A stretch of DNA of 64,000 bases from an uncultured Gemmatimonadales bacterium (GTDB lineage: Bacteria; Gemmatimonadota; Gemmatimonadetes; Gemmatimonadales; GWC2-71-9). Where the stretch lies: contig CAWGVB010000030.1 in assembly GCA_963825815.1 (NCBI GenBank), positions 10,287 through 74,286 on the forward strand, given 5' to 3'. A program made the position numbers and the translations under genes. The notes beneath the pieces were generated by a model. It made no database searches. It saw nothing but the letters and a program-made list of their open reading frames with translations, and was not told where the DNA came from. This document shows, piece by piece, positions 16,877 to 60,345 of this stretch. The first letter of the stretch is position 1. Each line of letters opens with the position of its first letter.

Positions 16877-18209
16877 ATGAGACAGAAATCGTCAGCGTGG
16901 CTGGACTGGTTCCTGGGTGTGGCCTGTGCCGGCATGCTCTGCCTGATTCTCGCCGCCTGTCACGACATCACGTCGCTGGAGCAGGAGTCGCCCAGCCGGG
17001 TCAAGGCCAGCGATCTGGAGAAACCGGAGAACGCAACGCTGCTGGTAAAAAGCGCGGTGGGCGACTTCGAGTGCGCCCTGAACGACTACATCGTGGCCGC
17101 GGGCGCGGTGAGCGACGAGCTGGCCAACGCCAATCTGGGGAACATCCTCTGGGACTTCGACCGGCGCACCATCGTTCCGACCCTCACCAACTACTCGACC
17201 GATACCTGCGACGACGGCAATCCCACCGTCTACACCGTGCTGTCCATCGCGCGCTACGACGCCGACAAGGCGCTCCAGCTGCTCGACGGCTGGACCGACG
17301 AGCAGGTGCCGGACCGGACCGCGCTGATCAGCGTCGCCGCCACCTATGCCGGGTACAGCCTGGTGCTCCTGGGCGAAGGCATGTGCTCGGCGGCGCTCGA
17401 TGTCGGCCCGGAGCTGACGCCCGGCACAGATCCTGACCGAGGCGGAGGCGCGATTCACCCGGGCGATCGACGCGGCAACGGCAGCGCTCACCACGGCGCA
17501 ACAGCGGATGACAGTCTCAGCCTCAACTCGGGCCTGAACCTGGCCCTGGTCGGCCGAGCCCGAGCGCGCTTGGATCTCGGCAACAAGCCGGGCGCGGGAG
17601 CCGACGCCGCGCTGGTTCCGGCCGGATTCCTGGTAACGGCGACCCGATCCAGCACCAAGACCCAGCGAGAGAACCTGATCTTCACCTCCATGTATCGGGA
17701 TCTCACCTTTACGGTGGACGTTCCCTTCCGGGATCTCACCTTCGGTGGCGTGCCCGATCCCCGGGTGACGGTAACCGATTTGGGCACTACCGGCGCCGAC
17801 AATGCCACCGAGATCTTTGCTCCGGCCAAGTACACCAGCATCGACGCGCCGATCGTGGTCGGCAAATGGGAAGAGGCCCAGCTGATCCTGGCGGAGGCAG
17901 ACCTGGCGGCGGGTGACGTGGGTGGCGCAGTCAGCATCATCAACACGCTGCACACCAATGCCGGACTTCCGGCCTACGGCGGAGGAACTCCGGAGGAAGT
18001 GCTGGCCCAAATCATCGACGAGCGGAGCCGGGAGCTGTTTCTCGAGGGCCAGCGCCTGGGCGACATCATCCGGTACGGGGTGCCGCTCTATCCGGCCCCG
18101 GGTACGCCCTTCGCAGTGGGTGCGGGAACGCTCGGGCGAGTACGGGACGCAGGTGTGCTTCCCCCTTCCGACAGTGGAGCGGAACAACAACCCGAATATC
18201 CCGGATTGA
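16877..18209 (+). pseudogene. SusD/RagB-family outer-membrane lipoprotein; about 3 frame changes (two compensating)
   Basis: ORFs 16877..18358 and 17913..18209. Sequence: MRQKSSAWLDWFLGVACAGMLCLILAACHD (lipobox), ...LLVKSAVGDFECALNDYIVAAGAVSDELAN...YAGYSLVLLGEGMCSAA...WEEAQLILAEADLAAG...IIDERSRELFLEGQRLGDIIRYG...VCFPLPTVERNNNPNIPD (typical SusD C-terminus). A locally shifted stretch near 17420-17500 reads AQILTEAEARFTRAIDAATAAL in another frame. Confidence 0.8.
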
Positions 18210-18428
18210 ACGACGGAAGGACGGAACGGGGGAACGACGGAACGACGGAAGGCGTAGGCAGGAAGCTACTCATCCCGAGGGCGACGGACGATCGAGGGAT
18301 CTACTCCAAGCCTTGCTTCAGGTGGAATGGATCCCTCGCTTCGCTCGGGATGAGGTAGCTCGCTTACAGCCTATCCGTCCGTTCCGTCCTTCCGTCGTTC
18401 CGTCGTTCCCACGTTCCTCCCGTTCAGT
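18209..18428. mobile_element. MITE-like composite palindromic element: 8-nt-periodic outer inverted arms around a REP-like inner palindrome
   Basis: The outer arms share a perfect 23-nt inverted repeat, GGGAACGACGGAACGACGGAAGG (left ~18232-18254; right as its complement within ~18380-18410). The termini are TGAACG...CGTTCA. The inner arms are GCTACTCATCCCGAG...GAGGGATC (18265-18301) and GGATCCCTCGCTTCGCTCGGGATGAGGTAGC (18329-18359). It fills the susD to next-gene spacer and carries no coding capacity for a transposase. Confidence 0.5.
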
Positions 18429-18438
18429 ATCTTCTGGC

Positions 18439-21688: not shown

Positions 21689-21692
21689 AGTG

Positions 21693-21730
21693 CTGAGTCT
21701 AGGGTCTAAACGTCTGGAGTCTAGACTCTA
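21693..21730. repeat. Heptad-periodic GTCT/GAGTC repeat with 12-nt palindrome GAGTCTAGACTC (21717-21728)
   Basis: gtgctGAGTCTAGGGTCTAAACGTCTGGAGTCTAGACTCTAcgg, between the asmA stop and the GT2 start. It shares the exact 13-mer GTCTAGGGTCTAA (21697-21709) with 60272-60284. Confidence 0.6.
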
Positions 21731-24451
21731 CGGTTTGGCGGTGGCTTGCCTCCGGGCGGCGGCGACCAGGCTGTCGGCCCGCTTGCTCGCCTCGCCCACG
21801 ATGCCCGCGGCCTTGGTGTCGGTCTCCTGCCGCAGCTTGTCGGCCGCGACCTTGGCCCCGGCCTGCAGCAGCGGATTGTCGCCCGCCCTCCCCATCAGCG
21901 AGTCGGCCTGCTGATAGCCGGTCTGCTTCACCTGCGCGGCCAGCGACTCCGCCTTGCTGCCGGATGGCCGCCGCCTGCTTCTCCGCCTCCGCCACCGCCC
22001 GAAGCGCCACCGAGTCCACCTTCTGGGTGACGGCCTGGGTCACCGCCTGCTGCGCGCCCGACGCCACCGTCGAGGTGACGCTGCCGAGGCCGACCTTGAC
22101 GATGGGGTCGGTGATCTTGCCGGTGAGCCCGATGTTGAGCGGTACCTCGGACGCCGCCCCGAGATTGAAGCCCGCCTTCGACGCCAGCCCCGCGATCGCC
22201 TGATCGGCACCGCCTACCAGCGACTTCGGCAGCCTCAGCCCCAGAGTGTAGTCCATGGTCTGGTCGATGCCGTTGGAGCCGGCCACGCTCATGCTGGTGC
22301 CGGCCAGCTTCACGGTGAACGGCTGGGTGACCAGGCGGCCCGTCCTTGATCTGAAATCCGGTCTTGATCGCCTGCATGGTGGGGTTGTTGAGGATCTGGA
22401 GCTTGGTGACGTCCACCAGCTTCTCCATCCCGGGGAAATTTCGCAGGGCGACATTTTGGCTCTGAAGGATTCCTTTGCCGGTGAGGGCGCTGAACAGCGG
22501 CATCATGTTCTTGCCCAGGGCGCCGCTCAGGTTGATATCGGTGTTCACCGTGCCCGAGGCGTACTTGGCCACCGGGGCGAACATCTGCACCGTGGTGAAG
22601 GCCTGGAAGGCGGAGGGGATGTCGATCTTGACCATCTTGAGGCCGACATCGAACGCCGGCTTGGCCAGGATCTTGGTGTCGTACGACCCGTTCAGGACGA
22701 TCTGCCCGCCCAGCGTGTTCATCCGGAAGTCCTGCAGCGTCGCCCGCTGGTCCTTGATCCGGAGCTTTCCGGTCGCGCCGGTCATCTTGAGCTTGTCGTA
22801 GGTCAGCTCTTTCACCGTCGCGTTGAGCCCGAAGTCGATCTTGGGCGGCACCGGGATGATCTGCAGGTCGCCCTCGCCCGAGCGCCACTCGTCCAGATCG
22901 AAGTGGTTGCTCTGGACCGTCGCGCTGCCCTTGAGGGTGTCGTCCCGGAAGGCGTAGGAGATCAGGTTGTCGATCGAGCCGGTCGCCCGGAGATCGCTGC
23001 TGCCGACCGTGCCGGTGAACTGGGTGAGCTGGGCCCGTTCGGGGCGCGAGCTGTGAGTGACGCCTGCTGGATCGCGCAGGGGATGCGGGCAGCGCCTTCG
23101 CCGCTTCAGCGTGAGATCGGTCGACGTCCATCGTGCCGCTGGCCGCGACCCGGTCGTACTGCTGCTTGTCGATCGCCGACATCCGGGTCTTCACCGCCGC
23201 GTCTGCGGCGATGGTGCCGGTGAGCTGGTCCACCTTGTCCAGCTTGACCGTGCGGCGCACGTCGGCCAGGTCCACCTTGCCCTTCATCCTGAGATCCACG
23301 TTGGGATCGGACACCGGCGTCCGCACCACCAGCGACGCGTCCACCGGGTTCGCGCCCATCCGCAGGTGGAAGCGGTCTCAGGTTGACCACCGTGCTGTCG
23401 GCGCTGCCGCCGGGATTGGTGAGCGCCAGGTCCATCACGATGTCGCGCGCCGGGCAGCGGGAGATCGGGATACTGGAACGCGGCGTTGTCGACCTTGGCG
23501 TTGAGGCGAACGCCGGGGAAGGCGCTGTCGCCGTACTCACCCTTGATCCGGCCGTCCAGGGTGAAGCCGCCCGAGGTCTTCACCTTGTCGAAGTCGTGGG
23601 CGTAGACCGCCGGCACCAGCGACAGGATGCTGAGGAACTTGGTGCTGGGCGCCTTGAAGGCGAGATCGAGCCCGAGGAGCTTGCCGGTCGAGCGGGCTGA
23701 GCCGGTGACGCCGAGCTTGAGGTCGTTGAGACTGAGGTCGGTGGTCTTGAGGGTGTAGACCTTGTTGGCCAGATCGGCGGCGACGTCGGCGTCGAGACCC
23801 AGCCGAACCCGGTTGAGATAGGGGATGCCGGCAAAGCTCACGCTCACGGTATCGGCGTCGGCCTTGGTCTTGACTGCGACCTGCTTCTGGCTGAAGTCGC
23901 CGCTGAGCGACTGGTCGTAGCCCTTGAGGGTCGCCTTGAGCCTGGCTCGGCGGTTGTCGAAGGCAATGTCGCCATTCTTGATCTCGAACCGCCGCAGGCT
24001 CAAGTCCATCGGCTTCGACGACTGGCGACTGGCGTCTGCCGTCTGCCGACTGATATCCCAATTGGCGGTTCCGTCCTCCAGCGCGATCAGGTTGAGCCTC
24101 GGCTGATCCAGCTCGACTCCCCGCACCACGATCGGCTTGCCGCTCAGGGCATAGCTCACCACGCTGGGAAGGCTCAGCACCACCCCGAGGTGGCGAACGG
24201 CGGCCAGGGTGTCGCCCTGGAAGCGGTCCGGCGTTGGCGACGGTGAGGTCGTCCAGCCGCAGGGTCAGGTTGGGGAAGTGGCGGAAGAAGCTGAGCCCGG
24301 CGTCGCGCCAGTCGACCCTGGCGTTGACGTTCCGGTTGGCCGCCTCCTTGGCCTTGGCGGCGATCTGGTTCTTGAAGAGGAGGGGGAGAACCAGGAGCAG
24401 GACCAGCAGGAGTGCGAACAGGCCGCCCAGGAGGACGAGGATCCGTTTCAT
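21728..24451 (-). pseudogene. AsmA-family outer-membrane biogenesis protein; about 7 frame changes
   Basis: ORFs 23537..24487, 23284..24183, 22310..23359, 21928..22851, 21699..22454 and 21728..21931. Sequence: MKRILVLLGGLFALLLVLLLVLPLLFKNQIAAKAKEAANRNVNARVDWRDAGLSFFRHFPNLTLRLDDLTV...IVVRGVELDQPRLNLIALEDGTANWDI...LSLRRFEIKNGDIAFDN...LKMTGATGKLRIKDQRATLQDFRMNTLGGQIVLNGSYD. N-terminal anchor plus a long beta-rich body. Confidence 0.75.
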
Positions 24452-28174: not shown

Positions 28175-28178
28175 TCCC

Positions 28179-28213
28179 CAGTCCGCAGACGCCAGACGCC
28201 AGACGTCAGCCTG
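28179..28213. repeat. Heptanucleotide tandem array CAGTCCG-CAGACGC-CAGACGC-CAGACGT-CAGCCTG
   Basis: Seen directly, immediately after the kinase stop (28172-28174). Confidence 0.6.
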
Positions 28214-28223
28214 AGTGAAAAGA

Positions 28224-28241
28224 GGGGGCCCTGAGGCCCCC
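28224..28241 (-). terminator. Intrinsic terminator hairpin for the Kelch gene (possibly bidirectional)
   Basis: GGGGGCC-ctga-GGCCCCC. On the minus strand it is followed by TCTTTTCAC. It lies between convergent stops (28174 and 28266). Confidence 0.6.
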
Positions 28242-28265
28242 GCTTCGTTCCCACTTCAGAAATCC

Positions 28266-30032: not shown

Positions 30033-30811
30033 GGGGTTCCATCCTGTTGGTTTGGTTGTGGAGTCGAAGGTCTGCGAGTCAGGAGTCGCCAGTCGGCAGT
30101 CGGAGTATCGAGCACGTGCTCGTCGACTCCTGACTCCTGACTGCGCTGACATCTGGCATCCCCCCACAACTCCTTGATCCTCTCCTCCCGCCCACAGCCG
30201 ATCACGTAGGCCCGGTACCGCTCGGGGTTCTTCTTGTAGAACTGCTGGTGGTACTCCTCCGCGGGATAGAACTTCGTCGCCCGCTGGACCTCGGTGACCA
30301 CCGGAGTCTTGAAACGGTGCGAGCGGTCGAGCGCCTGCTTCGACGCTTCCGCCGCGCGCTGCTGAGCCGAGTCGCGGTAGAAGATGATCGAGCGGTACTG
30401 GGGACCGGTGTCGCAGAAGGCCCGGTTGACCGTGGTCGGATCGATGTGGTGCCAATAGATGTCGAGCAGCCCGTCGTACGAGATCCGGGCCGGCTCATAA
30501 ATCACCTGCACCGACTCGGCGTAGCCGGTCTTTCCGGTCTCGACGAATTCGTAGTCCGGATTAGGCTGGGAGCCACCGGCGTAACCCGCCGTCACCTCGA
30601 CCACGCCGGGCACCCCATCGAACGCCTTCTGCATCGACCAGAAGCAGCCGCCGGCAAAGATCGCAATCTTCTGGGCGCCGGTGGGAACCGGCAGAACGGC
30701 CAGCTGGGCGTGGCCAGCCCGAGCGGTGCCCGGCAGCTTCAGGCCCAGGAGGGTCAAACCCAGCAATGACAAGGCGATAAGACTGGCGAATCGGATGGTG
30801 GGACGGGTCAT
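30029..30811 (-). CDS. msrA: Peptide-methionine (S)-S-oxide reductase MsrA with N-terminal signal peptide and a repeat-encoded C-terminal tail
   Basis: [35 protein letters not shown]...[59 protein letters not shown]...[13 protein letters not shown]. The last ~45 codons ([28 protein letters not shown]...) are read through the heptad array at 30061-30150. Confidence 0.85.
30061..30150. repeat. Palindromic heptad array (xxAGTCx units) centred on the perfect 14-nt palindrome CGAGCACGTGCTCG (30109-30122)
   Basis: GAGTCGA AGGTCTG CGAGTCA GGAGTCG CCAGTCG GCAGTCG GAGTATC GAGCACG TGCTCGT CGACTCC TGACTCC TGACTGC. The left and right arms are inverted copies. Confidence 0.65.
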
Positions 30812-30888: not shown

Positions 30889-30912
30889 CTCCTTCGCTGC
30901 GCTCAGGATGAC
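30889..30912. repeat. Solo REP-like half element (complement of GTCATCCTGAGCGCAGCGAAGGAG)
   Basis: CTCCTTCGCTGCGCTCAGGATGAC is seen directly between the kinase stop (30903) and the msrA start (30811). Confidence 0.5.
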
Positions 30913-32955
30913 AAGGTGCCACGAAGCGATGACGAGGCATGCGTTTCGACTGCCTCCAGCGCTCGCAAGAAGTCGGATGCCGAGGACCAGCGGGCCTCGG
31001 GCTTTCGAGCCAGCGCCTTGACGATGGCTCGGCTGAACGAATCCGGCACCTCGGGATTGAGCTCGGCCGGACTGGTCGGTTGAGACTCCTCCTGCTTTAA
31101 ATGATGCGCCACAAGTGCCAGGGTTCCGCTGGCTTCGAAGACCCGGCGGCCGGTGACGCATTCGAACAGCACCGCACCGGTCGCATAGATGTCGGTCCGA
31201 CCGTCCACCGGCTCGCCCAGCAGCTGCTCCGGCGCCATGTATGCCGGAGTGCCCACGACCACCCCTTCCACCGTGAGCGCCTTGCCATCGGTCTGGGCTC
31301 CAGCCAATCGCGCGATCCCGAAGTCGGTCACCTTCAGAAAACCGGTGGGATCCACCAGCAGGTTCTGCGGCTTGATGTCGCGGTGCACGATGCCCGCCTC
31401 GTGCGCCACCTCCAGCGCCCGACAAACCTGCTTGCCGATGGTGAGCGCCGCAGCGGCATCGAGTCGCCCTGCTTCCTTGATCAGCGACGCGACGGTCGTG
31501 CCCCGGACGTATTCCATAGTGATGTAGTAGATCCCGTCGGCCTCGCCCAGGTCGAAGGTGCGTACCACGTTCCGGTGGGTGATCCGCCGGGCCAGCCGAA
31601 GCTCCTGCTTGAAGCGCTCCAGCAGAGTGGGATCGAGCTGCCCGACGTCGGGCCGGATCGCCTTGATCGCCAGGGTCTCGCCCACCTGCCGGTCGAATGC
31701 GCGGTAGACCACGCCCATTCCACCAGCGCCGAGCGATTCCTGGATCTCGTAGCGTCCGGCGAAGAGGCGGCCGGTAGCGAGGAGTCCCTGACCATCTCGC
31801 CTGCCGTCGCTCACCACCTCGGTTGCAGCGGCGCCGGTCCGGAGATACTGGACCAGGCGATCCTTCTCCCGCAGCTCCTCCACCATCGTTCCGAAGGCGT
31901 GGGCCAGGTCGCCGATTTCGTCCCTGGTGCCCACATCGATCGGGCCGGTGTACTCGCCCTGGGTGACCTTGCGGGTTGCGGCGACCAGGCGCTGAACCGG
32001 ACGGACGATGTGCCGCGCGGCGAGAAGGGAGAACCCCACCGCAAGCAGCAGCCCGACAACGAAGGCCCATCGGATGGTCCGGCGGAGCTGCTGGTAGGCG
32101 GCGAGGTCGGCATTGCGGGAGTGAAGTCCCAGGTATCCGCCGACCGGAACGCTGTCGGCGGTGGTGAGCGAGCCGACAGTGCCCTCGTACTCGGTGTTGT
32201 CCAGGGTGAGATGGATGCGCGAGTCCGAGCGGGGACCAGTCCCCATGCGAAGACCGCGAAGGGCCTCGCTGAGTCGGCTGCGGGATTGGTTCGCCATAAC
32301 AGTAGTGGCCGCGACATAGGGCAGCCCTAGCGTATCGAGCGAGAAGAACACGATCTCCGAGTTGGTGTTTCGCCGGAGCCGGGCGGCAAAGGTACTGTCG
32401 ATCCTGAGCGCGGCGGCAACCACCGCCAGCGGGGTGGCCGACCCCGGGCTCAACACCGGCATAGCCACCGCCTGGTACAGCTGGTCACCCGCCTCACTCG
32501 GCTCGATCCACAGTCCCGATGTGGTCTTCCCCTCCAGCGCTCGGCCGATCAAGGCGCCGCGGGAGAAGTCCTGGTCGAACAGATCGCGCTCGGCGGTCCA
32601 GGCCCGAAGCACGCCGCTGGGGTCGGTGATCAGCACCCAATCGGCGCCGGTCTGACTCCGCAGCTCGTCGGCCTGGTCGAGGAGGTCGGCCCGGTTCCCG
32701 ATTCTCACCGACTCACCGATGCGGGAGACGTAGACCGGCACCTGCACCAGGCGCGGCGGTGAGCTGGCTCAGGGTCTGGCTCCGGCCCCCCAGGGCGTCG
32801 CGGATCGTGGCCTGAGTCGCCCGCAGAGCCTGGAGGGCGGCGGAATCGGCGGCGCGGTCGGCCTGGCGCTTGGTGATGAGCAGTGCGATACCGAGCACAG
32901 CGGTGACCACCAGGGCGGTGCCCAGAAAGATCCGGGTGCCGAGGGGGAGGCGCAT
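30903..32955 (-). CDS. Membrane Ser/Thr protein kinase with periplasmic sensor domain and HAMP linker; one frame change near 32740-32760
   Basis: ORFs 32713..33108 (N-terminus MRLPLGTRIFLGTALVVTAVLGIALLI) and 30903..32747 (614 aa intact). There is a second TM (WAFVVGLLLAVGFSLLAA), then HAMP (RHIVRPVQRLVAATRKVTQGEYTGPIDVGTRDEIGDLAHAFGTMVEEL), then the kinase (LGAGGMGVVYRAFD...AIKAI...HRDIKPQNLLV...VTDFGIA...GTPAYMAPEQ). Confidence 0.85.
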
Positions 32956-32956
32956 C

Positions 32957-33729
32957 TCAGTACCGGCGCCCCTGCTGGGGATAGGGCCGGCCGAACTTGT
33001 TGAGGTGGGGCTTGAACTGGTAACCCCGGGCATCGAGCTGGAGCTCGAGCTTCGAGAGGCCGGCCGCGGGCACCTCGATTGGACGGGAGACGGCGGGCGC
33101 CCGCTCATGCCAGGCGTGGAGGGTGTAATGCCCCGGCGGCACCGCCGGGATGGTGAACGAGCCGTCGCTCGCCGGCTGGGCGTACCAGGGATTGTCCCGC
33201 ACCACCACCAGCGCGCTCATCTGCGAATGGACGTTGCAGTAGACCCGCACGATTCCGGCCCGCTCGAACTTGACTGCCGGCGTCTCGCCCCGGCCATAGA
33301 GCCCCAGGTCGAAAGGATTCTCCTCGGAGAGGGAGAAGACGTTGTGATTGAAGGGATCGTGGTTGGGAAAGCTGATGCTGGAGCCGACCGGGACCACCAG
33401 GACATGGGGAGAGAACTGCTTCTCCGCGGTGGTGATCTCAGCGCGCACCGGGGCCGGCGGAACCGGCTTGTCCGCCGTCAGCCAGATGACCGCCTGCCCC
33501 ACGTCCTCGGCCTGTTTGTCGGATTTGTCGAGGAGGGTGAGATGGCCGGTGACAGAGTCGCGCAGTCACCAGTCCGCGAGCTCGGCGCAGAGAGTCTGGA
33601 GAGTCGCTCGAGACGTCGGCGACTGACGTCTGAGGGCTGGCGACTGAGGACTGGCGACTGCGAGAGACAGAACTCCCGCCACTCCCAGGACGGAGCGGAG
33701 TGGCAAAACGCGACTTATCTTGGCTCGCA
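32957..33729 (-). CDS. Secreted cupredoxin-like (type-1 copper site) protein with C-terminal beta-sandwich domain; one frame change/stop near 33560
   Basis: ORF 32957..33502 plus an unlisted upstream piece, MRAKISRVLPLRSVLGVAGVLSLAVAS... (ATG 33729). Putative Cu ligands: FPNHDPFNHNVFS and VYCNVHSQM. Then DGSFTIPAVPPGHYTLHAW (CarboxypepD_reg-like). The stop lies 1 nt from the kinase ATG (TGAgATG). Confidence 0.6.
33553..33670. repeat. Heptad array (GGCGACT / GAGGACT units, complement CAGTCGC) inside the 5' part of the cupredoxin gene
   Basis: ...GAGAGTC TGGAGAG TCGCTCG AGACGTC GGCGACT GACGTCT GAGGGCT GGCGACT GAGGACT GGCGACT GCGAGAG. It contains the hairpin AGACGTC-ggcgact-GACGTCT (33611-33631). 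Confidence 0.6.
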
Positions 33730-33764
33730 TGCCGGAACGGTACCGTCCGCTCCAGAGGGCGTCA

Positions 33765-33850
33765 ACGAGGCACGAGGCGAGAGTCGCGAGTCACGAGAGA
33801 TGAGTCACGAGTCACGAGTCGCGAGACATGGGTCGCGAGTCGCGAGAGGC
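33765..33850. repeat. Heptad array, about 12 units of ACGAGGC/GCGAGTC/ACGAGTC, spanning the divergent spacer and the porin start codon
   Basis: ACGAGGC ACGAGGC GAGAGTC GCGAGTC ACGAGAG ATGAGTC ACGAGTC ACGAGTC GCGAGAC ATGGGTC GCGAGTC GCGAGAG. There are six GAGTC pentamers. Its orientation is opposite to the 33553-33670 array. Confidence 0.7.
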
Positions 33851-34988
33851 GTGGCTGGTGGCGCTGCTCCTGCTGCCGCTGGGCAGCCGGCTCCTCGCCG
33901 CGCAGGAGCCGAAGCTCGAAGCCAGCGTGCACGGGCTGATCCTGATGAACGGGTTCTACACCAGCGACGACATGAACAACAGCGACGTGCCGCAGTTCGT
34001 GCTCCCGGCGGGAGAGCCGGCGCGGACCACGACCAGCGCTACGGTGCGGCAGTCGCGGGTGACGGTGACCGGCGTGGCCCAGGATTTCGCCGACGGCACG
34101 CTGACGGGCGAGCTGGACGTGGACTTCTTCGGCGGGCAGCAGCCCTCGACCGGCGGGCGGACGTTTCCACTGCTTCGAATCCGCCGGGCGTTCGCCGAGC
34201 TGGCCTGGGCCCGGTTCGCGGTTCTGGTGGGACAGGAGTCGCCCCCCATCGCGGAGGTGAGCCCGTCATCCATCGCGAGCATCGGCTTTCCCCTCTTCGC
34301 CGGGGCCGGCAACCTCTGGCTCTGGATCCCGCAGATCCGGCTGAGCGCCGATCTCGCCCCGATAGGCGGCGTTCGCCTTGGGATCGAGGGCGCGGCACTG
34401 GCGCCGACCTCGGGCGAGCCGCAGCAGACCTTCCTCACCCAACCCGATGCCGCGGAGCGGAGCGGCCGGCCCTATCTCCAGGGAAGACTGCGCGCCCGCT
34501 GGGGCGAGGGCGACCGGCTCGGCGAGATCAGCTTCGGCGGGCACTATGGCTGGCTGGAGGACAGCACCGGCGGCCGGATCGACTCGAAGGCGCTGGCGGT
34601 GAGCGTGTGGACGCCGATCGCCGGCGGCCTGGAGCTCCGGGGCGAAGCCTTCGTCGGGCAGGCGCTGGCCGGACTGGGCGGCGGCGGCATCGGGCAGAAC
34701 ATGGTGCGGAACGGCGTGCCGGTCGAAGCCAAGGGCGGATGGGTGCAGCTGAACTATCGAGCTGGGAGCTGGGAGCTGGGAGCCGGGGGTGGGATCGACG
34801 ATCCGGAAGATGAAGATCTGGTTGCGTCGTCCCGGCTTCGAAACCTGGCGTACGGCGGACACCTGATCTGGCGGCCCTTGCCGGCGGTGATCGGGCTGGA
34901 GGCACGGGAGATTCGCACGGACTATGCGCCGCCGGTGGATACGGAGTCGGGTGTTCAGGTCAATCTGGGTATCGGGATAGAATTTTAG
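33828..34988 (+). CDS. Outer-membrane beta-barrel porin-like protein
   Basis: Intact 386-aa ORF with signal peptide WLVALLLLPLGSRLLAAQEP and alternating beta-strand-like composition. The C-terminus ...VNLGIGIEF ends in an aromatic residue, as is typical of OMP beta-signals. No specific family recognised. Confidence 0.55.
   Translation: MGRESREAWLVALLLLPLGSRLLAAQEPKLEASVHGLILMNGFYTSDDMNNSDVPQFVLPAGEPARTTTSATVRQSRVTVTGVAQDFADGTLTGELDVDFFGGQQPSTGGRTFPLLRIRRAFAELAWARFAVLVGQESPPIAEVSPSSIASIGFPLFAGAGNLWLWIPQIRLSADLAPIGGVRLGIEGAALAPTSGEPQQTFLTQPDAAERSGRPYLQGRLRARWGEGDRLGEISFGGHYGWLEDSTGGRIDSKALAVSVWTPIAGGLELRGEAFVGQALAGLGGGGIGQNMVRNGVPVEAKGGWVQLNYRAGSWELGAGGGIDDPEDEDLVASSRLRNLAYGGHLIWRPLPAVIGLEAREIRTDYAPPVDTESGVQVNLGIGIEF
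34759..34793. repeat. Heptanucleotide tandem array GAGCTGG x3 - GAGCCGG - GGGTGGG inside the porin gene
   Basis: Seen directly. It encodes ...AGSWELGAGGG... in the open frame. Confidence 0.55.
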
Positions 34989-36642: not shown

Positions 36643-39600
36643 GGGACGACGGAACGTCAGGAATCCGTTTGGCTCTCTCCCTCCTCCATGTACCTTATAG
36701 CTGGAGCCCATAGCCTAGAGCCCATACCACAGCGAGACCCACCATCCCGCTCGATCTGCGCCGGTCCATTACCACGCTCACTCCTCTTCTCCGCTCGGAT
36801 GCCCGCGAGGATCTCCTGGCCGGCCCGATCCGGGGCGAGCTGCTCGGCGCCGAGCACCTGGCCGAGCGGGCCCAGGAGGTGGCCGCGGCACAGCGGCTCT
36901 CGGTCAGACGGCGGCGGCCGCCGGACCCCGCTGCTGGCCCGGCTGAACGGAACCCGGAAGATCCTGGAGGACGCCTATGCCCGGCTCACCGCCGCCGCCG
37001 ACGGCGGCGTCGACGTCGGCCCCGCCGGCGAGTGGCTGCTGGACAACTACCACGTGGTCCAGGAGCACATCGGCGAGGTGCGGGAGAGCCTGCCGAGCGG
37101 CTACTACCGCGAGCTGCCGGTGCTGGCCGGCGGCCCGCTGGCCGGCTATCCCCGGGTCTACGAGCTGGCCATCACGCTGATCTCCCACACCGAAGGGCGG
37201 ATCGACCTCGACAACGTGAGCGGCTTCGTCGACGCGTTCCAGCAGGTCTCGGTGCTCACCATCGGCGAGCTGTGGGCGATGCCCGCCATGCTCCGGCTGG
37301 GGCTGATCGAGAACGTCCGCCGGATGGCGCTCCGCACGGTGCAGCGGCTGGACGAGATCGAGGCGGCCGACTCGGCCGCGGCCGCGGCTCGCCGCCGCGC
37401 GCCGTCGAAGGGACAGGCGCGCTCGACGCCGAGCTCGACCGATTCGCCTCCGACCCGCCGCCGCTCACCCCGACCTTCGTCTCCCGCTTCCTGCAGCAGC
37501 TCCGGGTCGAGGGCGGCGCGCTCCCCGCCGTCGTGCGGCTGGAGCAGTGGATCGCCGAGGAGGCGCTGAGCGCGGAGGAGGCCACCGCCCGCGCCACCCA
37601 GCGGCTGGCCCTCACGCAGGTGGTGATGGCCAACAGCATCACCAGCCTCCGCGCCATCGGCCGGATGGAGTGGCGCACCTTCGTCGAGGCGGCAGAGCCG
37701 GATCGAGCGGTGCTGCGCGAAGGATCCGTCCGGGCTTCTACGGCCAGCATGACCTTCGCCACCCGGGACCGCTATCGCCACGCGGTGGAGCGGATCGCCA
37801 AGCGGACCCGGCTCAGCGAGGAGAGCCGTGGCCCGGCACGCGATCGAGTGCGCCCGCTCCGGCCTGGAGACGAGCACCCGGACGACCAGCGCCGCGCGCA
37901 CGTGGGCTACTACCTGGTCGACGAGGGTCTGGCCGAGCTGGAGCGCCTGGCCCGGCTACACGTCCGGCGCCCGGCGAGAGCGGTTGACCGCTGGGTGCGG
38001 CGCCATCCCAACGTCGTGTTCGTCGGCGGCATCGTCCTGGCCACGCATCGCGCGCTCTGGCCGCGGTGCTCTGGCTCGGCGGGCCGGCGGCCCGCGCGGT
38101 CTGGCCGCTGGGTGCTGCTGCTGGGCCTGATCCCGGCCAACGACATCGCGGTCAACGTGGTGAACCAGCTGGTCACCGCGTTCCTCCCGCCGCGCCCGCT
38201 CCCCAAGCTCGACCTGCACGAGCACGGCGTGCCGCCCGAGTACCGCACCGCGGTGGTGATCCCCACCCTCTTCGGCAGCGTGGACGCGGTGCGACGAGGC
38301 GCTGGAGAACCTGGAGGTCCAGTTCCTGGCCAACCGGGAAGCCCATCTCCACTTCGCCGTGCTGAGCGACTTCACCGACTCGACCAGCCGAGACCCGGGA
38401 AGACGACGCCGCGATCCTGGAGGCCGCGGTCGACGGCGTCAACGCACTCAACGCCCGCTACGCCGCCGGACGGCGAGGACGCGTTCTACCTCTTCCACCG
38501 CCCCCGCCGCTGGAATCCGCACGAGGGCGTCTGGATGGGATGGGAGCGGAAGCGGGGCAAGCTCGCCGAGTTCAACCGGTTCGTGCTGACCGGCGAGGAG
38601 ACGCGCTTCTCCGTCATCGTGGGCGACAAGAGCCGCTCCGATGCGGTGCGCGTACGTGATCACGCTCGACTCCGACACCGTGCTGCCGCCCGACGCGGCG
38701 CCCGCTGCTGGTCGGCGCGCTGGCCCACCCGCTCAACCGCGCGGTGTACGATCGACAAGCTGGGCCGGGTGGTACGCGGGCTACGGCATCCTCCAGCCGC
38801 GGGTCGGCGTCTCGCTGCCCAGCGCGCACCGCTCGCTCTTCGCCTCGATCCACTCGGGCCACCCCGGCGTGGACCCTTACACCACCGCGGTCTCCGACGT
38901 CTACCAGGACCTCTACGGCGAGGGGAGCTTCACCGGCAAGGGGGTCTACGACGTCGAGGCGTTCGAGCGCGCCACCCACGGCCGCTTCCCCGAGAACACG
39001 CTGCTGTCGCACGACCTGATCGAGGGCAACTACGCCCGCGCCGGTCTGGCCACCGACGTGATCGTCTACGACGACTACCCGACCCGCTACCTCACCTATC
39101 ACCCGCCGCAAGCACCGCTGGATCCGGGGCGACTGGCAGCTGCTGCCCTGGCTCCGGCGCGGGTGCCGGGCCCCGAGGGGCGCGAGCGCAACCGGCTGTC
39201 GATCCTCTCGCGCTGGAAGATCATCGACAACCTCCGGCGCAGCACGGTGGAGCTGGCCCAGCTGGTCTTCCTGGTGGCCGGCTGGACGCTGCTTCCCGGC
39301 TCGCCGATCCGCTGGACGCTGCTCGGGCATCGGCGCCATCGCCGCGCCCTGGATCGTCTCGCTCCTGCTCGCGCTGGTGCGTCCGCCGCTGGACAAGTCC
39401 TGGCGGGCCTACTATGCGGCGGTGGGGCACGATTTCGTCACCAGCATTCAGCAGATCGCGCTGGCGGTCGGCGTTCCTGCCCCACCAGGCCTGGGTCTCG
39501 GCCGACGCGATCGTCCGCACCCTCTGGCGGATGAAGGTGAGCCACCGGCACCTGCTGCGAGTGGCAGACCGCGTCGCAGATCGAGCGCGGGACCGGGACG

Positions 39601-40516
39601 CACGACCGGAGCGGTGTGGCGCCAGATGTGGCCGGCGGTCGCCCTGGCGGCGCTCATCATCGCGCTGGTGGCCTGGCGCGCGGTGCCGAGCCTGAGCGCG
39701 TGCCAGACTGGGAGATACGTGGTGGGCGTGCTGCCGCTGGGACTCGCCTGGATCGCCTCGCCCGCTGATCGCGCAGGCGCTTGCGGCGCCGGCCCTGCCC
39801 AGGGAGCTGCGGCTGCGCGGGAGAGGGCCGGCGGCAGATGCACCGCTATGCCCTGCTCCACTGGCGTTTCTTCGACCGGTTCGTCAGCGAGCAGACCAAC
39901 TGGCTCGCGCCGGACAACTTCCAGGAGGATCCCAAGCCGGTCGTGGCGCTGCGCACTTCGCCCACCAACATCGGCCTCCAGCTGCTGGCCACGGTCAGCG
40001 CCTACGACCTGGGCTTCATCACTCTCGATGATATGGCCCGCCGGCTGGAGCTCGCGTTCCGCACTCTGGAGCGGATGCGGCGGCTGCAGGGCCACTTCTA
40101 CAACTGGTACGACCTGACCGACCTCCGGGTGCTGGAGCCGGCCTACGTGTCCACGGTGGACAGCGGCAATCTGGCCGGCCACCTCATCGCGCTGCGGCAG
40201 GCGTGCCTGGCGCTGATCGAGCAGCCGCTGGATGGACGGGTCGGCCGGGCGCTGGACACGGCGCTGCCGCTGGCCGACGAGCGGCGGAAGCAGCTGATCC
40301 CCAATCACTCCGCGGGAAAGCAGCTGCGGGCCGGCGCTCAAGCTGGTATCACAGTTCGGGCGGCATACGCCGTCTACCTCCAGGCTGGCCCGGCGTCAGG
40401 CGACGCACTCCGGCAGTACGAACGGAGGTCAACTCGGCGGGACTCGGGGCCGGGTCTGGCGGAGGCGCTGACGGAATGGACCTCGTGGAGTCTGCGGCTG
40501 ATTGAGCGCACCAGGC

Positions 40517-40570
40517 GAGTGGATCGGCGAAGTCGGGAGTCGCGGAGTCAGCGAATCGCGCGTCAGCTAG
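40517..40570. repeat. Short-period (7-8 nt) AGTC-type array inside the glucan synthase gene
   Basis: gagtggatcggcGAAGTCG GGAGTCG CGGAGTC AGCGAATC GCGCGTC AGCtagc. It encodes RRSRESRSQRIARQ in the locally open frame. Confidence 0.5.
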
Positions 40571-43500: not shown

Positions 43501-44796
43501 GCTCCGGATCACCACATATATGGAATGGGCTCTGGGGGTGCTCCGGGAGCACACCCAGCACCAGGTGCAAACCCGATTCGATCGGGAGCGGGAGACGCTG
43601 CGGGCCACCAACTACTTCGACCCCAGCTTTGCCGGTTGGACCGGATTCCATTGCATCAGCGAGCCGGTGATTGCCTACACGGCCGGCCGCCGGGACTTCA
43701 TCGGCCGGAACCGTTCAGTCGCAAACCCCGCCGCGTTGCTGGATGGCGGGAATCTCTCCGGTGTTACCGGCGCCGGGATCGATCCGTGCGCGGCGCTGCA
43801 GTGCTCGATCGAGCTCGCGCCGGGCCAAGACCGGGAGATCGCCATCATACTGGGCGCGGCGGAAACCGAGCTCAAGACTCAGGGGTTGACTGAGGAGTAT
43901 CGCGACCCGGCCCGAGCGAAGGCCGCGATCGATGAAACGATTGCCGGCTGGAGCGAGCGGCTCTCGGTCATCACGGTGAAGACACCGGAGCCCACCTTCG
44001 ACGCGATGATCAACCGCTGGACCTTGTACCAGGCGCTCTCCTGCCGGATGTGGGGCCGCTCGGCGTTGTATCAGAGCAGCGGCGCGTACGGCTTTCGCGA
44101 TCAACTACAGGATGTGATGGCGTTCCTCTATGCCGAGCCCGCACTGGCGCGGGAGCACATACTCCGGGCCTCCGGCTCGCCAGTTCGTGGAAGGCGACGT
44201 GCAGCACTGGTGGCATCCCCACAGCGGCCGGGGAGTGCGCACCCGGTTTTCCGACGATCTGGCCTGGCTGCCCTACGTGGTGGACCAGTATGTCCGGGTC
44301 ACCGGCGATACGTCGGTGCTGGATGAGCCGGTTCCGTTCCTGACCATGCGTCAGCTGGGTCCGGAGGAGCACGAGATTTACGACTTGCCCGAGGTGAGCT
44401 CAGAGGTGGCGAGCGTGTACCAGCACTGCGTTCGGGCCCTCCGCCGGGCCTGCACTACGGGCGAGCACGGCCTGCCTTTGATCGGCATCGGCGACTGGAA
44501 CGACGGGTTGAACCGGGTCGGGGTTCACGGTCAGGGTGAGAGCGTGTGGCTGGCATGGTTCCTGGCCACTACGCTCAAGGCCTTTGCCGAGCAGGCCGAC
44601 TCTCGGGGAGACGTGGCTATCGCGGCGGAGTTCAGGGGTCAGGCCGTCACCTATCTGATGGCGGTGGAGCAGCACGGGTGGGACGGAGAGTGGTATCGCC
44701 GGGCCTACTTTGACGACGGAACGCCGCTTGGCTCGCGGACGAACGAGGAATGCCGAATCGATTCGATCGCGCAGAGCTGGAGTGTAATTGCAGGCG

Positions 44797-44880
44797 GGCA
44801 GGCGGCCAGTCGGTCAGGCGGGAAGACCAGTGGAAGGACGGATCTTCAGACCGCCCGACAGCCCGACCGCCCGACCACCG
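44797..44880. repeat. In-frame repeat insertion (8-nt period: GACCGCCC GACAGCCC GACCGCCC GACCACCG plus an inverted-like left half) inside the GH94 domain
   Basis: ORF 44130..45560 stays open across it and reads ...[51 protein letters not shown].... The flanks are conserved-looking and the middle is low complexity. Confidence 0.6.
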
Positions 44881-45745
44881 CAATGAAGTCGCTGGAGAAG
44901 TATTTGGTGCGCGAGGATGCCCGGCTGCTCATGCTGCTGACTCCCCCATTCGACAAGACCGAGAAAGATCCCGGATACATCAAGGGCTACCTGCCGGGCG
45001 TCCGGGAGAATGGGGCGCAATACACGCACGCCGCGCTCTGGGCCGTGCTGGCCACCGCTCTCCAGGGCAACGGAAACCGGGCCTTCGAGCTGTATCAGAT
45101 GATCAACCCGCTGACTCACGCGCGCACGCCGGAGGAGGTAGAGGTCTACAAGGTCGAGCCGTATGTCGTGGCGGCCGATGTGTACACGGCAGACGGCCAG
45201 TTGGGACGGGGCGGGTGGACCTGGTACACCGGTTCTGCGAGCTGGATGTACCGGGTGGGACTCGAGGGCATTCTCGGCTTCACCAAGCGGGGTGACCGGC
45301 TGTACATCGAGCCGAGAGTCCCCACCTCCTGGTCAGCCTATACCATCGAATACCGATACGGTGCGAGCGTCTATGTGATCGCGGTGCGCAACGAGGAGGG
45401 AATATCCGGCGGAGCGGTCGAGGTCATCATTGACGGAGCTCCGTCAGCCGACGGCTGGGTTCGCCTGGTCGATGACGGCGCTCGGCACGAGGTGAGCGTA
45501 CAGCGGGTGAGTAGCGATGTATCGCAGAGGGAGGAGGTCGCCGCGGACGATAATAGATAAAGCGGACGAACCACCTCCGCCTGCGTCTCGACCCCGTCGG
45601 GCAGGCTTCTTGCGACCCCGCCACACTGCAGTGAGTTGCCGCACTCCCTAAACAAGACATTGACCGTTTCCAGGTAAGCTGGAGCCTCTGCCGGCTCCTT
45701 ATCGGATGGTTACGCAGTCTGACAGTCAACCTGCCGAGGCGTGCC

Positions 45746-60255: not shown

Positions 60256-60257
60256 GG

Positions 60258-60345
60258 GTGGTCCGGTCTAGGTCTAGGGTCTAAGTCTAGACTAGGGTCT
60301 GCCGTCTGGTGTCTGGGGTCTGGTGTCTGCCATCTGGCGCCTGGC
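60258..60345. repeat. Heptad array (GGTCTAG / TCTGGNG units) with palindrome GTCTAGAC (60285-60292); covers the ddaH-permease spacer and the permease 3' end
   Basis: GGTCCGG TCTAGG TCTAGGG TCTAAG TCTAGAC TAGGG TCTGCCG TCTGGTG TCTGGGG TCTGGTG TCTGCCA TCTGGCG CCTGGCA. The 13-mer GTCTAGGGTCTAA (60272-60284) is identical to 21697-21709. Confidence 0.65.

What the first reader, a model, noticed from the sequence alone, without database searches (positions are those of the whole stretch)
33553..33850. Two oppositely oriented heptanucleotide arrays bracket a divergent promoter and invade both 5' coding ends (type locus of a dispersed heptad-repeat family)
Array A (33553-33670) is built from GGCGACT/GAGGACT units, the complement of CAGTCGC. 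It lies inside the cupredoxin gene just after its signal peptide, where it encodes PQSPALRRQSPTSRATLQ.
Array B (33765-33850) has ~12 units of GCGAGTC/ACGAGTC, including six GAGTC pentamers. It covers the spacer and supplies the porin ATG (33828).
The arrays are inverted relative to each other around a ~95-nt core, forming a large imperfect palindrome over the control region of the cupredoxin-kinase operon and the porin gene.
Related 7-nt or 8-nt periodic arrays occur at 1511-1648, 3531-3640, 18209-18262/18368-18428, 21693-21730, 28179-28213, 30061-30150, 34759-34793, 36643-36660, 40517-40570, 44797-44880 and 60258-60345.
A 7-nt unit is not a multiple of 3, so a change in copy number would shift frame or alter promoter spacing. 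That gives contingency-locus potential, although the units are degenerate.
The closest described analogue I know is the heptameric STRR repeats of heterocystous cyanobacteria. The enrichment of GANTC-type words (GAGTC/GACTC) also invites a methylation or DNA-binding-array hypothesis.
Basis: seen in the sequence. Interest (0 to 1): 0.65.

Follow-up and report, generated by a model that had tools for sequence, protein, structure and literature searches.

The report
Hairpin-forming heptamer microsatellites at gene starts
Two runs of a 7-base repeat around the shared control region of two soil-bacterium genes are real members of a genome-wide, fast-changing repeat family, but they behave as tolerated spacer and protein-linker sequence rather than as a gene on/off switch.

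Summary
The arrays are real. Array B has a strong 7-nt period (72% match at lag 7, z 7.6). Only the right half of array A is periodic. A is a palindrome in itself, so there is no large A-B palindrome.

The genome is a soil Gemmatimonadales MAG. It holds 111 period-7 and 199 period-8 arrays, against 0 and 2 in a Markov control. About 65% lie outside genes and 40-50% occur as inverted pairs.

Pairs have strict polarity. All 31 octamer pairs put the G-rich arm first. AGTC-first heptad pairs occur in 28 of 61 genomes of the genus; the reverse order occurs in none.

Array A lies just after the signal peptide of a cupredoxin-like protein. Twelve relatives and strains carry an array at that same site, with different length, unit and architecture. 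All twelve are in frame without stops, so this is not a contingency switch.

The window's in-frame TGA is unique to it, and this assembly is rich in errors.

The closest known kind is the heptamer repeats of Xanthomonas and Nostoc. My best reading is arrays made by slippage and fold-back copying, kept only where insertions are tolerated. Genome-specific units and the polarity remain unexplained.

The parts
33553..33612 (.). Array A, left arm: degenerate AGTC-type heptads (AGAGTCGC, GCAGTCAC, CAGTCCGC ...). It pairs with the right arm.
   Evidence: Fold and duplex results. Its own periodicity is not significant. Its nature is clear from the ortholog L016, which has a clean (CAGTCAC)n arm.
33613..33670 (.). 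Array A, right arm: GACT-type heptads (GGCGACT/GAGGACT). Together with the left arm it forms an AGTC-first palindrome of about 110 nt inside the cupredoxin ORF.
   Evidence: TRF 33620-33660, period 7/14. Lag-7 match 51%, z 3.3. Duplex with the left arm -33.7 kcal/mol, z -5.5.
33566..33568 (-). In-frame TGA inside array A (unit GACTGGT where relatives have GACTGGC, that is CGA to TGA). It is either a real nonsense mutation or an assembly error.
   Evidence: Translation. Absent from 12 orthologous alleles. The assembly carries many errors.
32957..33730 (-). Cupredoxin-like secreted protein gene. ATG at 33730. The signal peptide is MRAKISRVLPLRSVLGVAGVLSLAVA. A tail of about 30 aa encoded by array A follows, then the conserved TGHLTLLDK... 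mature domain.
   Evidence: Pfam Copper-bind PF00127, 25.7 bits. N-terminal comparison with relatives.
33737..33765 (-). Conserved promoter of the cupredoxin gene: TTGACG (33765-33760), a 17-nt spacer, then TACCGT (33742-33737). The ATG lies 6 nt downstream, so the mRNA is probably leaderless.
   Evidence: The motif is conserved in about 25 orthologous loci. The E. coli-type consensus scan does not call it, so this is an inference from conservation.
33765..33850 (.). Array B: about 12 GAGTC-type heptads (GCGAGTC/ACGAGTC) in a single orientation. It abuts the -35 hexamer, fills the divergent spacer and encodes the Arg-rich start of the porin-like protein's signal peptide.
   Evidence: TRF 33765-33846, period 7, 11.7 copies, with a higher-order period of 28. 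Autocorrelation z 7.6. Orthologs compared.
33800..33830 (+). Two candidate start codons of the porin-like gene, both inside array B: ATG 33800 (the frame used by relatives L018 and L014: MSHESRVARHGSRVARG...) and ATG 33828 (the frame of this assembly).
   Evidence: The window has one extra C at 33855 relative to G278. That shifts the frame between the two ATGs.
33828..34988 (+). Putative outer-membrane beta-barrel ('porin') gene. It has a signal peptide and a C-terminal ...NLGIGIEF. No family assignment was obtained.
   Evidence: ORF. No Pfam or NCBIfam hit. The 'porin' label is an inference.
30903..32747 (-). HAMP-coupled Ser/Thr protein kinase gene downstream of the cupredoxin gene (context only).
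   Evidence: Pfam Pkinase 7.9e-51 and HAMP 3.2e-16.

Best explanation
Arrays A and B are two ordinary members of a lineage-specific family of 7- and 8-nt microsatellites that fills tolerant positions in many soil Gemmatimonadales genomes.

Inferred mechanism:
1. Arrays grow, shrink and homogenise by replication slippage of whole units.
2. A second, inverted arm is made by fold-back (intra-strand template switching). This gives hairpin-capable palindromes.
3. Either arm can later be lost, which explains single arms and orientation flips.
4. Selection then removes arrays wherever they do harm. They therefore persist in intergenic spacers, at gene termini and in disordered linkers.

Shown at this locus:
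- An array has been resident since the common ancestor of a clade of relatives. It sits at the signal-peptide/mature-protein junction of the cupredoxin-like protein, and another sits in the spacer and 5' end of the divergent porin-like gene.
- Length, unit sequence and architecture have turned over completely between species, while the reading frame has been kept.

In practice A encodes a variable, low-complexity N-terminal tail of the secreted protein. B is a variable spacer next to the -35 element and also encodes the charged start of the porin signal peptide. Neither works as a frameshift switch. Nothing shows a conserved regulatory structure.
For: Family is real:
- 111 and 199 arrays of period 7 and 8, against 0 and 2 in a Markov genome.
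- 65% and 63% lie fully outside genes in a genome called 79% coding.
- 49% and 39% have an inverted partner array within 250 nt, against 0 in random controls.

Resident and hypervariable:
- Orthologs L013-L019, L021 and L022 (77-94% aa identity) all carry a heptad array at the same codon position.
- ATG-to-DVGQA distance is 159-273 nt in them, against 126-153 nt in about 17 more distant relatives without an array.
- In three syntenic genomes at about 91% identity, arrays sit at the same 15 sites but differ in length, unit and orientation, while flanks stay 88-96% identical.

Frame selection:
- All 12 other alleles are in frame without stops. Strain-level indels are 18 nt and 3 nt.

Unit turnover by small steps with homogenisation:
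- GACTCCC, GACTCGC, GACTGGC and GACTCAC occur across orthologs, and L018 holds a mixture.

Fold-back copying:
- A and its orthologs form strong hairpins (L016 -121.5 kcal/mol, z -12).
- The order of unit variants tends to be mirrored between arms (mean z 1.07 over 16 informative pairs).
- Orientation flips at fixed sites fit loss of one arm from a palindrome (window 24015 against G278; G272 at the G000 C3:39501 site).

Loops between arms are locus-specific, with no shared internal sequence and no target-site duplication.

The same class is described in Xanthomonas: heptamer arrays, 70-75 convergent inverted pairs, same gene context but different length and sequence between species (PMC4692102).
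Against: Slippage plus fold-back alone does not predict these observations:
- Absolute polarity of pairs: 31 of 31 octamer pairs are G-rich-first, and about 275 AGTC-first matches stand against 0 GACT-first across 61 genomes.
- The same few units recur at 10-40 loci in one genome.
- Dominant units are genome-specific: G272 uses GACTGGY and G274 uses GACTCCY. The orthologous cupredoxin-site array follows its genome's unit.
- Whole elements of about 160 nt are absent from clean empty sites in relatives.
- The unit class is replaced at one fixed site (44788).
- The period distribution peaks sharply at 7-8 nt.

The mirrored-order signal is weak. My gene calls are home-made and the assembly is noisy, so the genome-wide context figures are approximate.
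Confidence: 0.55

Rival explanations
1. A dedicated, trans-acting system writes, spreads or homogenises the arrays. It could be a mobile-element-like or enzyme- or template-driven process. It would impose the AGTC-first or G-first polarity and a genome-specific unit. A and B would be products of that system rather than of passive slippage.
For: - Strict polarity.
- Genome-specific dominant units, shared by many loci and by the orthologous cupredoxin-site array.
- Patchy distribution even within the genus: 28 of 61 genomes, and 47 of 251 in the phylum.
- Empty sites against full palindromes of about 160 nt.
- Cassette-like replacement of the unit class at a fixed site.
- In-frame occupation of coding sequence, as in Rickettsia palindromic elements.
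Against: - No candidate gene was found.
- The IS200/RAYT-type Y1 transposase is present in 11 of 11 array-bearing genomes of the genus, but also in 3 of 7 without arrays. It is absent from four array-rich genomes (G121, G175, G200, G222). The G000 copy is not flanked by arrays.
- No AlwI-family GAGTC nickase was found in 61 genomes.
- Loops and flanks share no sequence, and no target-site duplication is seen.
- At about 91% identity most sites keep their own unit class, so site predicts unit better than genome does.
- Some arrays are frozen and identical across distant genomes.
Confidence: 0.2
2. The arrays are selected cis-acting elements. As RNA or DNA hairpins or protein-binding arrays they would set transcription termination, mRNA stability, promoter strength (B lies in the UP-element position of the cupredoxin promoter) or translation pausing after the signal peptide (A).
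For: - In co-directional spacers the 5' arms start a median of 1-13 nt after the upstream stop codon.
- Paired octamers are nearly absent from divergent spacers: 1 of 48 intergenic pairs, whereas divergent spacers make up 23% of intergenic length.
- The A hairpin is stable in the mRNA sense (-54 kcal/mol, z -3.2).
- B abuts the -35 hexamer.
- GACT-type arms contain TGAC, the core of the -35 hexamer (seen directly in the sequence).
Against: - At this locus nothing but position is conserved.
- Six of the nine species-level orthologs have a single arm at the A site and no hairpin (z about 0).
- Length ranges from about 15 to 125 extra nt.
- B is short or decayed in L123/L125, and a different array lies further from the gene in L015.
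- About 17 relatives lack both arrays yet keep the same promoter and genes.
- No Rfam family matches.
- The locus lies in a divergent spacer, where the family is otherwise rare.
Confidence: 0.15
3. The locus is a contingency (phase-variable) locus. Gain or loss of 7-nt units would switch the cupredoxin-kinase operon or the porin on and off by frameshift or by promoter spacing. The in-frame stop in the window would be an OFF allele.
For: - The unit length is not a multiple of 3.
- Arrays lie in 5' coding regions and next to a promoter.
- The window allele carries a TGA, and the porin start differs in frame from relatives.
Against: - All 12 orthologous alleles are in frame and open, at more than ten different lengths.
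- Strain-level indels are 18 nt and 3 nt, not 7 nt.
- The window's defect is a substitution, not a unit change. It lies in an assembly with about 1 extra base per 500 nt.
- Array A is too degenerate (70-84% matches) for high-rate slippage.
- B lies upstream of the -35 hexamer, so it does not alter -35/-10 spacing.
Confidence: 0.03
4. The arrays are clusters of GANTC (GAGTC/GACTC) sites. They would serve as methylation targets or as a binding array for a GANTC-reading protein.
For: B holds six GAGTC. GAGTC and GACTC are 7-10 times denser inside arrays than in the genome as a whole.
Against: - The local density follows trivially from the unit sequence.
- Genome-wide O/E is 0.95-0.98 for all four GANTC words.
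- Many units of the same family (GACTGGC, CAGTCAC) and all the octamers lack GANTC.
- Orthologous arrays switch between GANTC and non-GANTC units.
Confidence: 0.04

Closest known systems
G-rich heptamer repeats of Xanthomonas (GGGAATC) and Nostoc PCC 7120 (GGGGA(C/T)T), Rehm et al. 2015, PMC4692102
   Same: - Hundreds of dispersed tandem 7-nt arrays, enriched outside genes.
- Many occur as convergent inverted pairs able to form stem-loops (70-75 pairs in Xanthomonas).
- Related species have them in the same gene context but with different length and sequence.
- There is no link to gene function and no known role.
- Units here (GGCGACT, GAGGACT, GGGGACT) resemble the Nostoc unit.
   Different: - The heptads here have no G3 tracts, so G-quadruplexes are not expected, and there is no preference for four units.
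- Several unit families, including many octamers, coexist in one genome.
- Units differ between genomes of one genus.
- Arrays are often translated in frame inside proteins.
- This locus lies between divergent genes, a context in which the Xanthomonas repeats are under-represented.
STRR (short tandemly repeated repetitive) heptanucleotides of heterocystous cyanobacteria (Calothrix/Anabaena; cited in PMC4692102)
   Same: Tandem heptanucleotides dispersed through the genome. STRR1 (CCCCAGT, which is GGGGACT on the other strand) is nearly the unit seen here.
   Different: - A different phylum.
- Few inverted pairs are reported in Nostoc.
- In-frame coding copies and genome-specific unit sets are not described there.
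Intergenic TAACTGA direct repeats of marine Beggiatoaceae (MacGregor 2015, PMC4679880)
   Same: Heptamer direct repeats at more than 100 loci, mostly just upstream of start codons. The phylogenetic distribution is patchy and the units contain ACTG.
   Different: There is a single fixed unit with 2-6 copies and only one inverted case. That work proposes a binding site for a translational regulator. The arrays here are palindromic and variable, and they also lie at 3' ends.
REP/REPIN elements with RAYT transposases; MITEs; Rickettsia palindromic elements
   Same: Short dispersed palindromes at gene boundaries. RPEs also sit in frame inside ORFs. Presence and absence differ between relatives.
   Different: - There is no conserved element sequence, because loops and units differ from locus to locus.
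- No target-site duplication is seen.
- The Y1 transposase gene is not flanked by arrays, and it is missing from several array-rich genomes.
Phase-variable simple sequence repeats (contingency loci) of host-adapted pathogens, e.g. heptanucleotide repeats of Haemophilus HMW1A (PMC8262952; title and abstract only)
   Same: A short tandem repeat near a promoter and a 5' coding end, with a unit that is not a multiple of 3.
   Different: Alleles here never break the frame. The repeats are degenerate, and the genes concerned are spread over all functions.

Membership tests
Dispersed heptameric SSRs with convergent inverted pairs (Xanthomonas/Nostoc type, PMC4692102) | Tandem 7-nt units at many loci, over-represented relative to other unit lengths | tested here: met
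   111 period-7 arrays against 4, 16 and 15 for periods 6, 10 and 11, and 0 in a Markov genome. In 469 kb from relatives there are 43 period-7 arrays against 1 and 2 for periods 6 and 10.
Dispersed heptameric SSRs with convergent inverted pairs (Xanthomonas/Nostoc type, PMC4692102) | Bias towards non-coding DNA | tested here: met
   65% of the heptamer arrays lie fully outside called genes, in a genome called 79% coding. The gene calls are approximate.
Dispersed heptameric SSRs with convergent inverted pairs (Xanthomonas/Nostoc type, PMC4692102) | Pairs of arrays in convergent orientation only | tested here: met
   AGTC-first pairs occur in 28 of 61 genomes and the opposite order in 0 of 61. 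All 31 octamer pairs are G-rich-first.
Dispersed heptameric SSRs with convergent inverted pairs (Xanthomonas/Nostoc type, PMC4692102) | Same gene context in related species, with variable length and sequence | tested here: met
   15 sites compared in three syntenic genomes; the cupredoxin site in 12 further alleles.
Dispersed heptameric SSRs with convergent inverted pairs (Xanthomonas/Nostoc type, PMC4692102) | G-tracts of three or more, able to form G-quadruplexes, with a preference for four units | tested here: not met
   Units at this locus (GCGAGTC, GGCGACT, GAGGACT) have no GGG, and B has about 12 units. Some of the octamer families (GCGGGGAA) do have G4 tracts.
Contingency (phase-variable) SSR locus | Copy-number variants among strains that switch the reading frame or promoter spacing | tested here: not met
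   All 12 alleles are in frame and open. Strain-level indels are 18 nt and 3 nt. B lies outside the -35/-10 spacer.
Contingency (phase-variable) SSR locus | Within-population length heterogeneity in reads | not testable with these tools
REP/REPIN mobilised by a RAYT | A RAYT (Y1 transposase) gene that is flanked by the repeats and co-occurs with them | tested here: not met
   The single PF01797 gene at G000 C2:269874-270212 has no arrays within 1.8 kb. Array-rich G121, G175, G200 and G222 lack the family.
REP/REPIN mobilised by a RAYT | A conserved repeat sequence shared by all copies in a genome | tested here: not met
   Several unit families coexist and the loops are locus-specific.
MITE | Terminal inverted repeats, a target-site duplication and a conserved internal sequence | tested here: not met
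   Inverted arms are present, but the 17 palindromic heptad elements of G000 show no duplication of flanking bases and share no loop sequence.
Known RNA families (Rfam 15) | A match to a curated covariance model | tested here: not met
   No match at E <= 1 in 33000-34300.

The most novel reading that the evidence does not exclude
Soil Gemmatimonadales may carry an unrecognised, polar, trans-acting process. Candidates are a fold-back copying activity, a hairpin-specific enzyme or a template-directed repeat writer. It would create inverted 7-8-nt arrays always in one orientation (AGTC-arm or G-rich arm first). It would keep them homogenised to a genome-specific unit. It would continually rewrite fixed 'cassette' positions, including translated protein linkers such as the N-terminal tail of this cupredoxin.
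Probability: 0.2. Interest if true: 0.85.

Novelty: new variant of a known kind. Interest (0 to 1): 0.5.

Why it matters
Heptamer microsatellites have been known to be over-represented in many bacterial genomes since 2007, and they remain unexplained. This clade offers an unusually rich natural experiment:
- Each genome has hundreds of arrays and several unit families.
- Pair polarity is absolute.
- Units are genome-specific.
- Array positions are fixed while the sequence turns over within a genus.

The cupredoxin locus adds a clean case in which a 7-nt repeat is translated, cycling through all three frames. At least 12 alleles keep it in frame. This shows that such arrays can build and remodel disordered protein segments without acting as switches.

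For annotation it is a warning. The arrays keep spurious ORFs open, shift apparent start codons and attract assembly errors.

Tried and rejected
1. A-B super-palindrome: rejected. A pairs with itself. The whole-region fold has z -1.5, and the polarity would be wrong.
2. Contingency switch: rejected on frame conservation.
3. RAYT/IS200-type transposase as mobiliser: suggestive within the genus (my hand calculation gives Fisher p about 0.011), but four array-rich genomes lack it and the gene is not flanked by arrays.
4. GAGTC-specific nickase or type IIS enzyme (AlwI family) driving repeat amplification: no hit in 61 genomes. The named control genomes gave no hit either, so sensitivity is unproven.
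5. GANTC methylation signal: all four words are at expectation.
6. Rfam: no match.
7. E. coli-type promoter scan: nothing. The promoter was instead inferred from conservation.
8. Selenocysteine or recoded TGA at 33566: considered and not pursued. All relatives have CGA or another sense codon there, and the assembly is noisy.
9. The G-U asymmetry of the L016 hairpin first looked like stop-codon avoidance in the coding strand (GTGACTG contains TGA). The same CAGTCAC/GGCGACT asymmetry recurs at many loci of that genome, so coding constraint is not a sufficient explanation.
11. The one metagenome scan returned only four contigs, none from a near-identical strain of the window genome.
Full report
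**Observation**

Array B (TRF 33765-33846) is a clear heptad array. It has 11.7 copies of ACGAGTC/GCGAGTC and six GAGTC. Its lag-7 self-match is 72% (z 7.6), and none of 500 dinucleotide shuffles reaches that value.

Array A is weaker. Its right half (33611-33670) is periodic (51% at lag 7, z 3.3). Its left half (33553-33610) is not significantly periodic on its own (z 1.4).

A folds on itself. The left half carries AGTC-type words and the right half GACT-type words. Their duplex is -33.7 kcal/mol (z -5.5). A-right against B gives -25.3 (z -2.6) with only 52% ungapped complementarity. The whole stretch 33540-33860 folds no better than shuffles (z -1.5). The A-B palindrome over the control region is therefore not supported.

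**Anatomy of the locus**

The minus-strand gene encodes a cupredoxin-like protein (Pfam Copper-bind). Its conserved start is the ATG at 33730. Upstream lies TTGACG, a 17-nt spacer, then TACCGT, with 6 nt to the ATG. About 25 orthologous loci share this arrangement, which suggests a leaderless mRNA.

Array A lies directly after the signal peptide (…LSLAVA) and before the conserved TGHLTLLDK. It adds about 30 residues.

Array B starts exactly at the upstream edge of the -35 hexamer. It runs into the divergent 'porin' gene. That gene has a signal peptide and a C-terminal GIGIEF but no family hit. Both candidate ATGs, at 33800 and 33828, lie inside B. Relatives L018 and L014 read MSHESRVARHGSRVARG… from the first one.

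**Comparison of the locus**

The window is from a soil Gemmatimonadales MAG. Nine species-level orthologs (77-94% protein identity) all carry a heptad array at the same position in the cupredoxin gene.
- Units differ: GACTCCC, GACTCGC/GACTCAC, GACTGGC, GCTCCCA.
- The ATG-to-DVGQA distance is 159-273 nt.
- Six have a single arm. Three (L013, L014, L016) are palindromic, as is the window.

About 17 more distant relatives have no array, and their distance is 126-153 nt.

Four metagenome contigs add strain-level pairs:
- L124 differs from L016 by one 18-nt block.
- L126 differs from L014 by 3 nt.
- L123 and L125 have identical array lengths.

All 12 alleles other than the window are in frame and free of stops. 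For a 7-nt repeat this means strong selection on the reading frame. It argues against a frameshift switch.

The window's TGA is a single CGA to TGA change in a GACTGGC unit. The assembly has about 175-185 extra single bases per ~58 kb relative to two syntenic relatives. Those two relatives differ from each other by only 63 and 34 such gaps. An extra C at 33855 changes the porin N-terminal frame. I therefore treat both defects as unresolved. They are either real lesions or assembly errors.

**The family in this genome**

TRF finds 111 period-7 and 199 period-8 arrays at score >=40. Periods 6, 10 and 11 give 4, 16 and 15. A 5th-order Markov genome gives 0 and 2.

A few units recur at many loci: GCGGGGAA 43, AGCGGGGC 39, GGCGGACG 21, GACTCGC 19, GACTGGC 14.

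I called genes with a home-made codon model that marks 79% of the genome as coding. On those% and 63% of the arrays lie fully outside genes. Most 'genic' arrays sit in the first or last 15% of a gene.

About half of the heptamer arrays and 39% of the octamer arrays have an inverted partner array within 250 nt. Random controls give none. Paired octamers are almost absent from divergent spacers (1 of 48 intergenic pairs). In co-directional spacers the first arm starts a median of 1-13 nt after the upstream stop codon.

**Polarity**

All 31 octamer pairs have the G-rich arm first. This property is the same on both strands.

Across 61 genomes of the genus, (AGTCNNN)x3…(GACTNNN)x3 occurs in 28 genomes, with about 275 forward matches. 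The reverse order occurs in none. Array A obeys this rule. An A-right/B pair would violate it, although the search covered only spacings of 3-60 nt and the A-B gap is 94 nt.

Loops between arms are locus-specific, and no target-site duplication is visible.

**Distribution and turnover**

(GACTSNN)x4 occurs in 47 of 251 genomes of the phylum. The distribution is patchy even within the genus.

Genomes have their own dominant units: G272 GACTGGC/T, G274 GACTCCC/T, G138 GACTCAC, G243 GACTCTA. The orthologous cupredoxin-site array uses its genome's dominant unit.

In three syntenic genomes at about 91% identity, 15 array sites are shared. The arrays differ far more than the flanks do:
- The unit class is replaced at 44788.
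- Orientation is flipped at 24015.
- The array is nearly absent at 30058 in G277.

At greater distance clean empty sites exist. An element of about 160 nt at G000 C2:178735 is absent from G273 and G274. Other arrays are frozen and identical across genomes.

**Mechanism**

The simplest account has four parts:
1. Slippage drives birth, growth and homogenisation of arrays.
2. Fold-back copying makes the second arm.
3. One arm is occasionally lost.
4. Selection filters by position and by reading frame.

Support comes from the stepwise relation between orthologous units, the hairpin strength, a weak mirrored order of unit variants between arms (mean z 1.07, n=16) and the orientation flips.

This account does not explain the absolute polarity, the recurrent genome-specific units, the empty sites or the 7-8-nt peak. 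I give it 0.55, and 0.2 to a dedicated trans-acting process.

Two candidates for such a process were tested:
- The Y1/RAYT transposase family is present in 11 of 11 array-bearing genomes of the genus but also in 3 of 7 without arrays. It is absent from four array-rich genomes. The G000 copy is not flanked by arrays.
- The AlwI family of GAGTC nickases gave no hit in 61 genomes.

GANTC words are at expectation genome-wide. Rfam has no match.

**Relation to what is known**

Rehm et al. 2015 (PMC4692102) describe the same class in Xanthomonas and Nostoc. Their account covers dispersed heptamers, non-coding bias, 70-75 convergent inverted pairs, and the same gene context with different length and sequence between species. 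The function is unknown there too. Their cited hypothesis (Mrazek 2007) is polymerase slippage.

The Gemmatimonadales arrays differ in several respects:
- The heptads lack G-tracts.
- Octamer families coexist with the heptamers.
- Units differ between genomes of one genus.
- Arrays are translated in frame.

I found no paper on such repeats in Gemmatimonadota.

Earlier notes of this scan on other Gemmatimonadales genomes describe the same class and the same G-first polarity. They are not independent evidence. Here I re-derived positional conservation, turnover, polarity and in-frame tolerance myself.

**Limits**

- The gene calls are approximate.
- The assembly is noisy.
- The evidence for genome-specific units rests on perfect-core pattern matches, which favour young arrays.

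Noticed in passing
window-wide, e.g. 37384-38800: The window has about 175-185 extra single bases (mostly C or G) per ~58 kb relative to two syntenic relatives. Those two differ from each other by only 63 and 34 such gaps. The assembly looks indel-rich, which explains broken ORFs such as 36879-39695 and makes frame-based claims in this genome unsafe.
   Followed up: partly
window 33728-33765 (- strand) and orthologous loci L003-L047: A conserved TTGACG-N17-TA(A/C)C(C/G)T-N6-ATG arrangement suggests a leaderless mRNA for the cupredoxin-like gene. In array-free relatives the divergent porin ATG lies only about 25 nt from the -35 hexamer, so the two promoters must overlap.
   Followed up: partly
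window 18205-18430: The loop of an octamer-arm palindrome holds a separate ~85-nt hairpin element (CTCATCCCGAG…CTCGGGATGAG). It is present in the window and in G277, apparently in a different internal arrangement, and absent from G278. It looks like a small mobile hairpin nested in the array.
   Followed up: partly
window 44788-44882: Inside the glucan-synthase-like ORF the window has a CAGGCGG…GACCGCCC palindrome. Both syntenic relatives have (GCGGGGCA)n at the same site. A different unit class occupies one fixed in-frame position.
   Followed up: partly
window 28176-28245: G278 has 276 nt at this site where the window has 70 nt. Only the first part of the heptad array is shared.
   Followed up: no
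G000 C34:5468-5501 and C22:5113-5151 (outside the window): Two heptad arrays are almost identical, including an internal variant unit, in genomes whose flanks are only 72-80% identical. They look frozen, probably as coding sequence, in contrast to the usual rapid turnover.
   Followed up: partly
G000 C2:269874-270212 (outside the window): A single-copy IS200/RAYT-like Y1 transposase gene with no repeats nearby. Single-copy homologs are common across the family.
   Followed up: partly
G000 C2:204592-204684, C16:9756-9832, C16:11592-11667, C15:62988-63092 (outside the window): Several palindromic heptad elements end a few bases from a start codon or a -10-like box of the neighbouring gene. Outward-facing GACT-type arms carry TGAC, the core of the -35 hexamer, every 7 nt. 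This could let arrays supply promoter elements.
   Followed up: no
window 21690-21732 and 60255-60347: Heptads of the GTCTAGN/GTCTAAN type contain TAG or TAA, and so place stops in all three frames. They are kept with the same unit class in both syntenic relatives.
   Followed up: no
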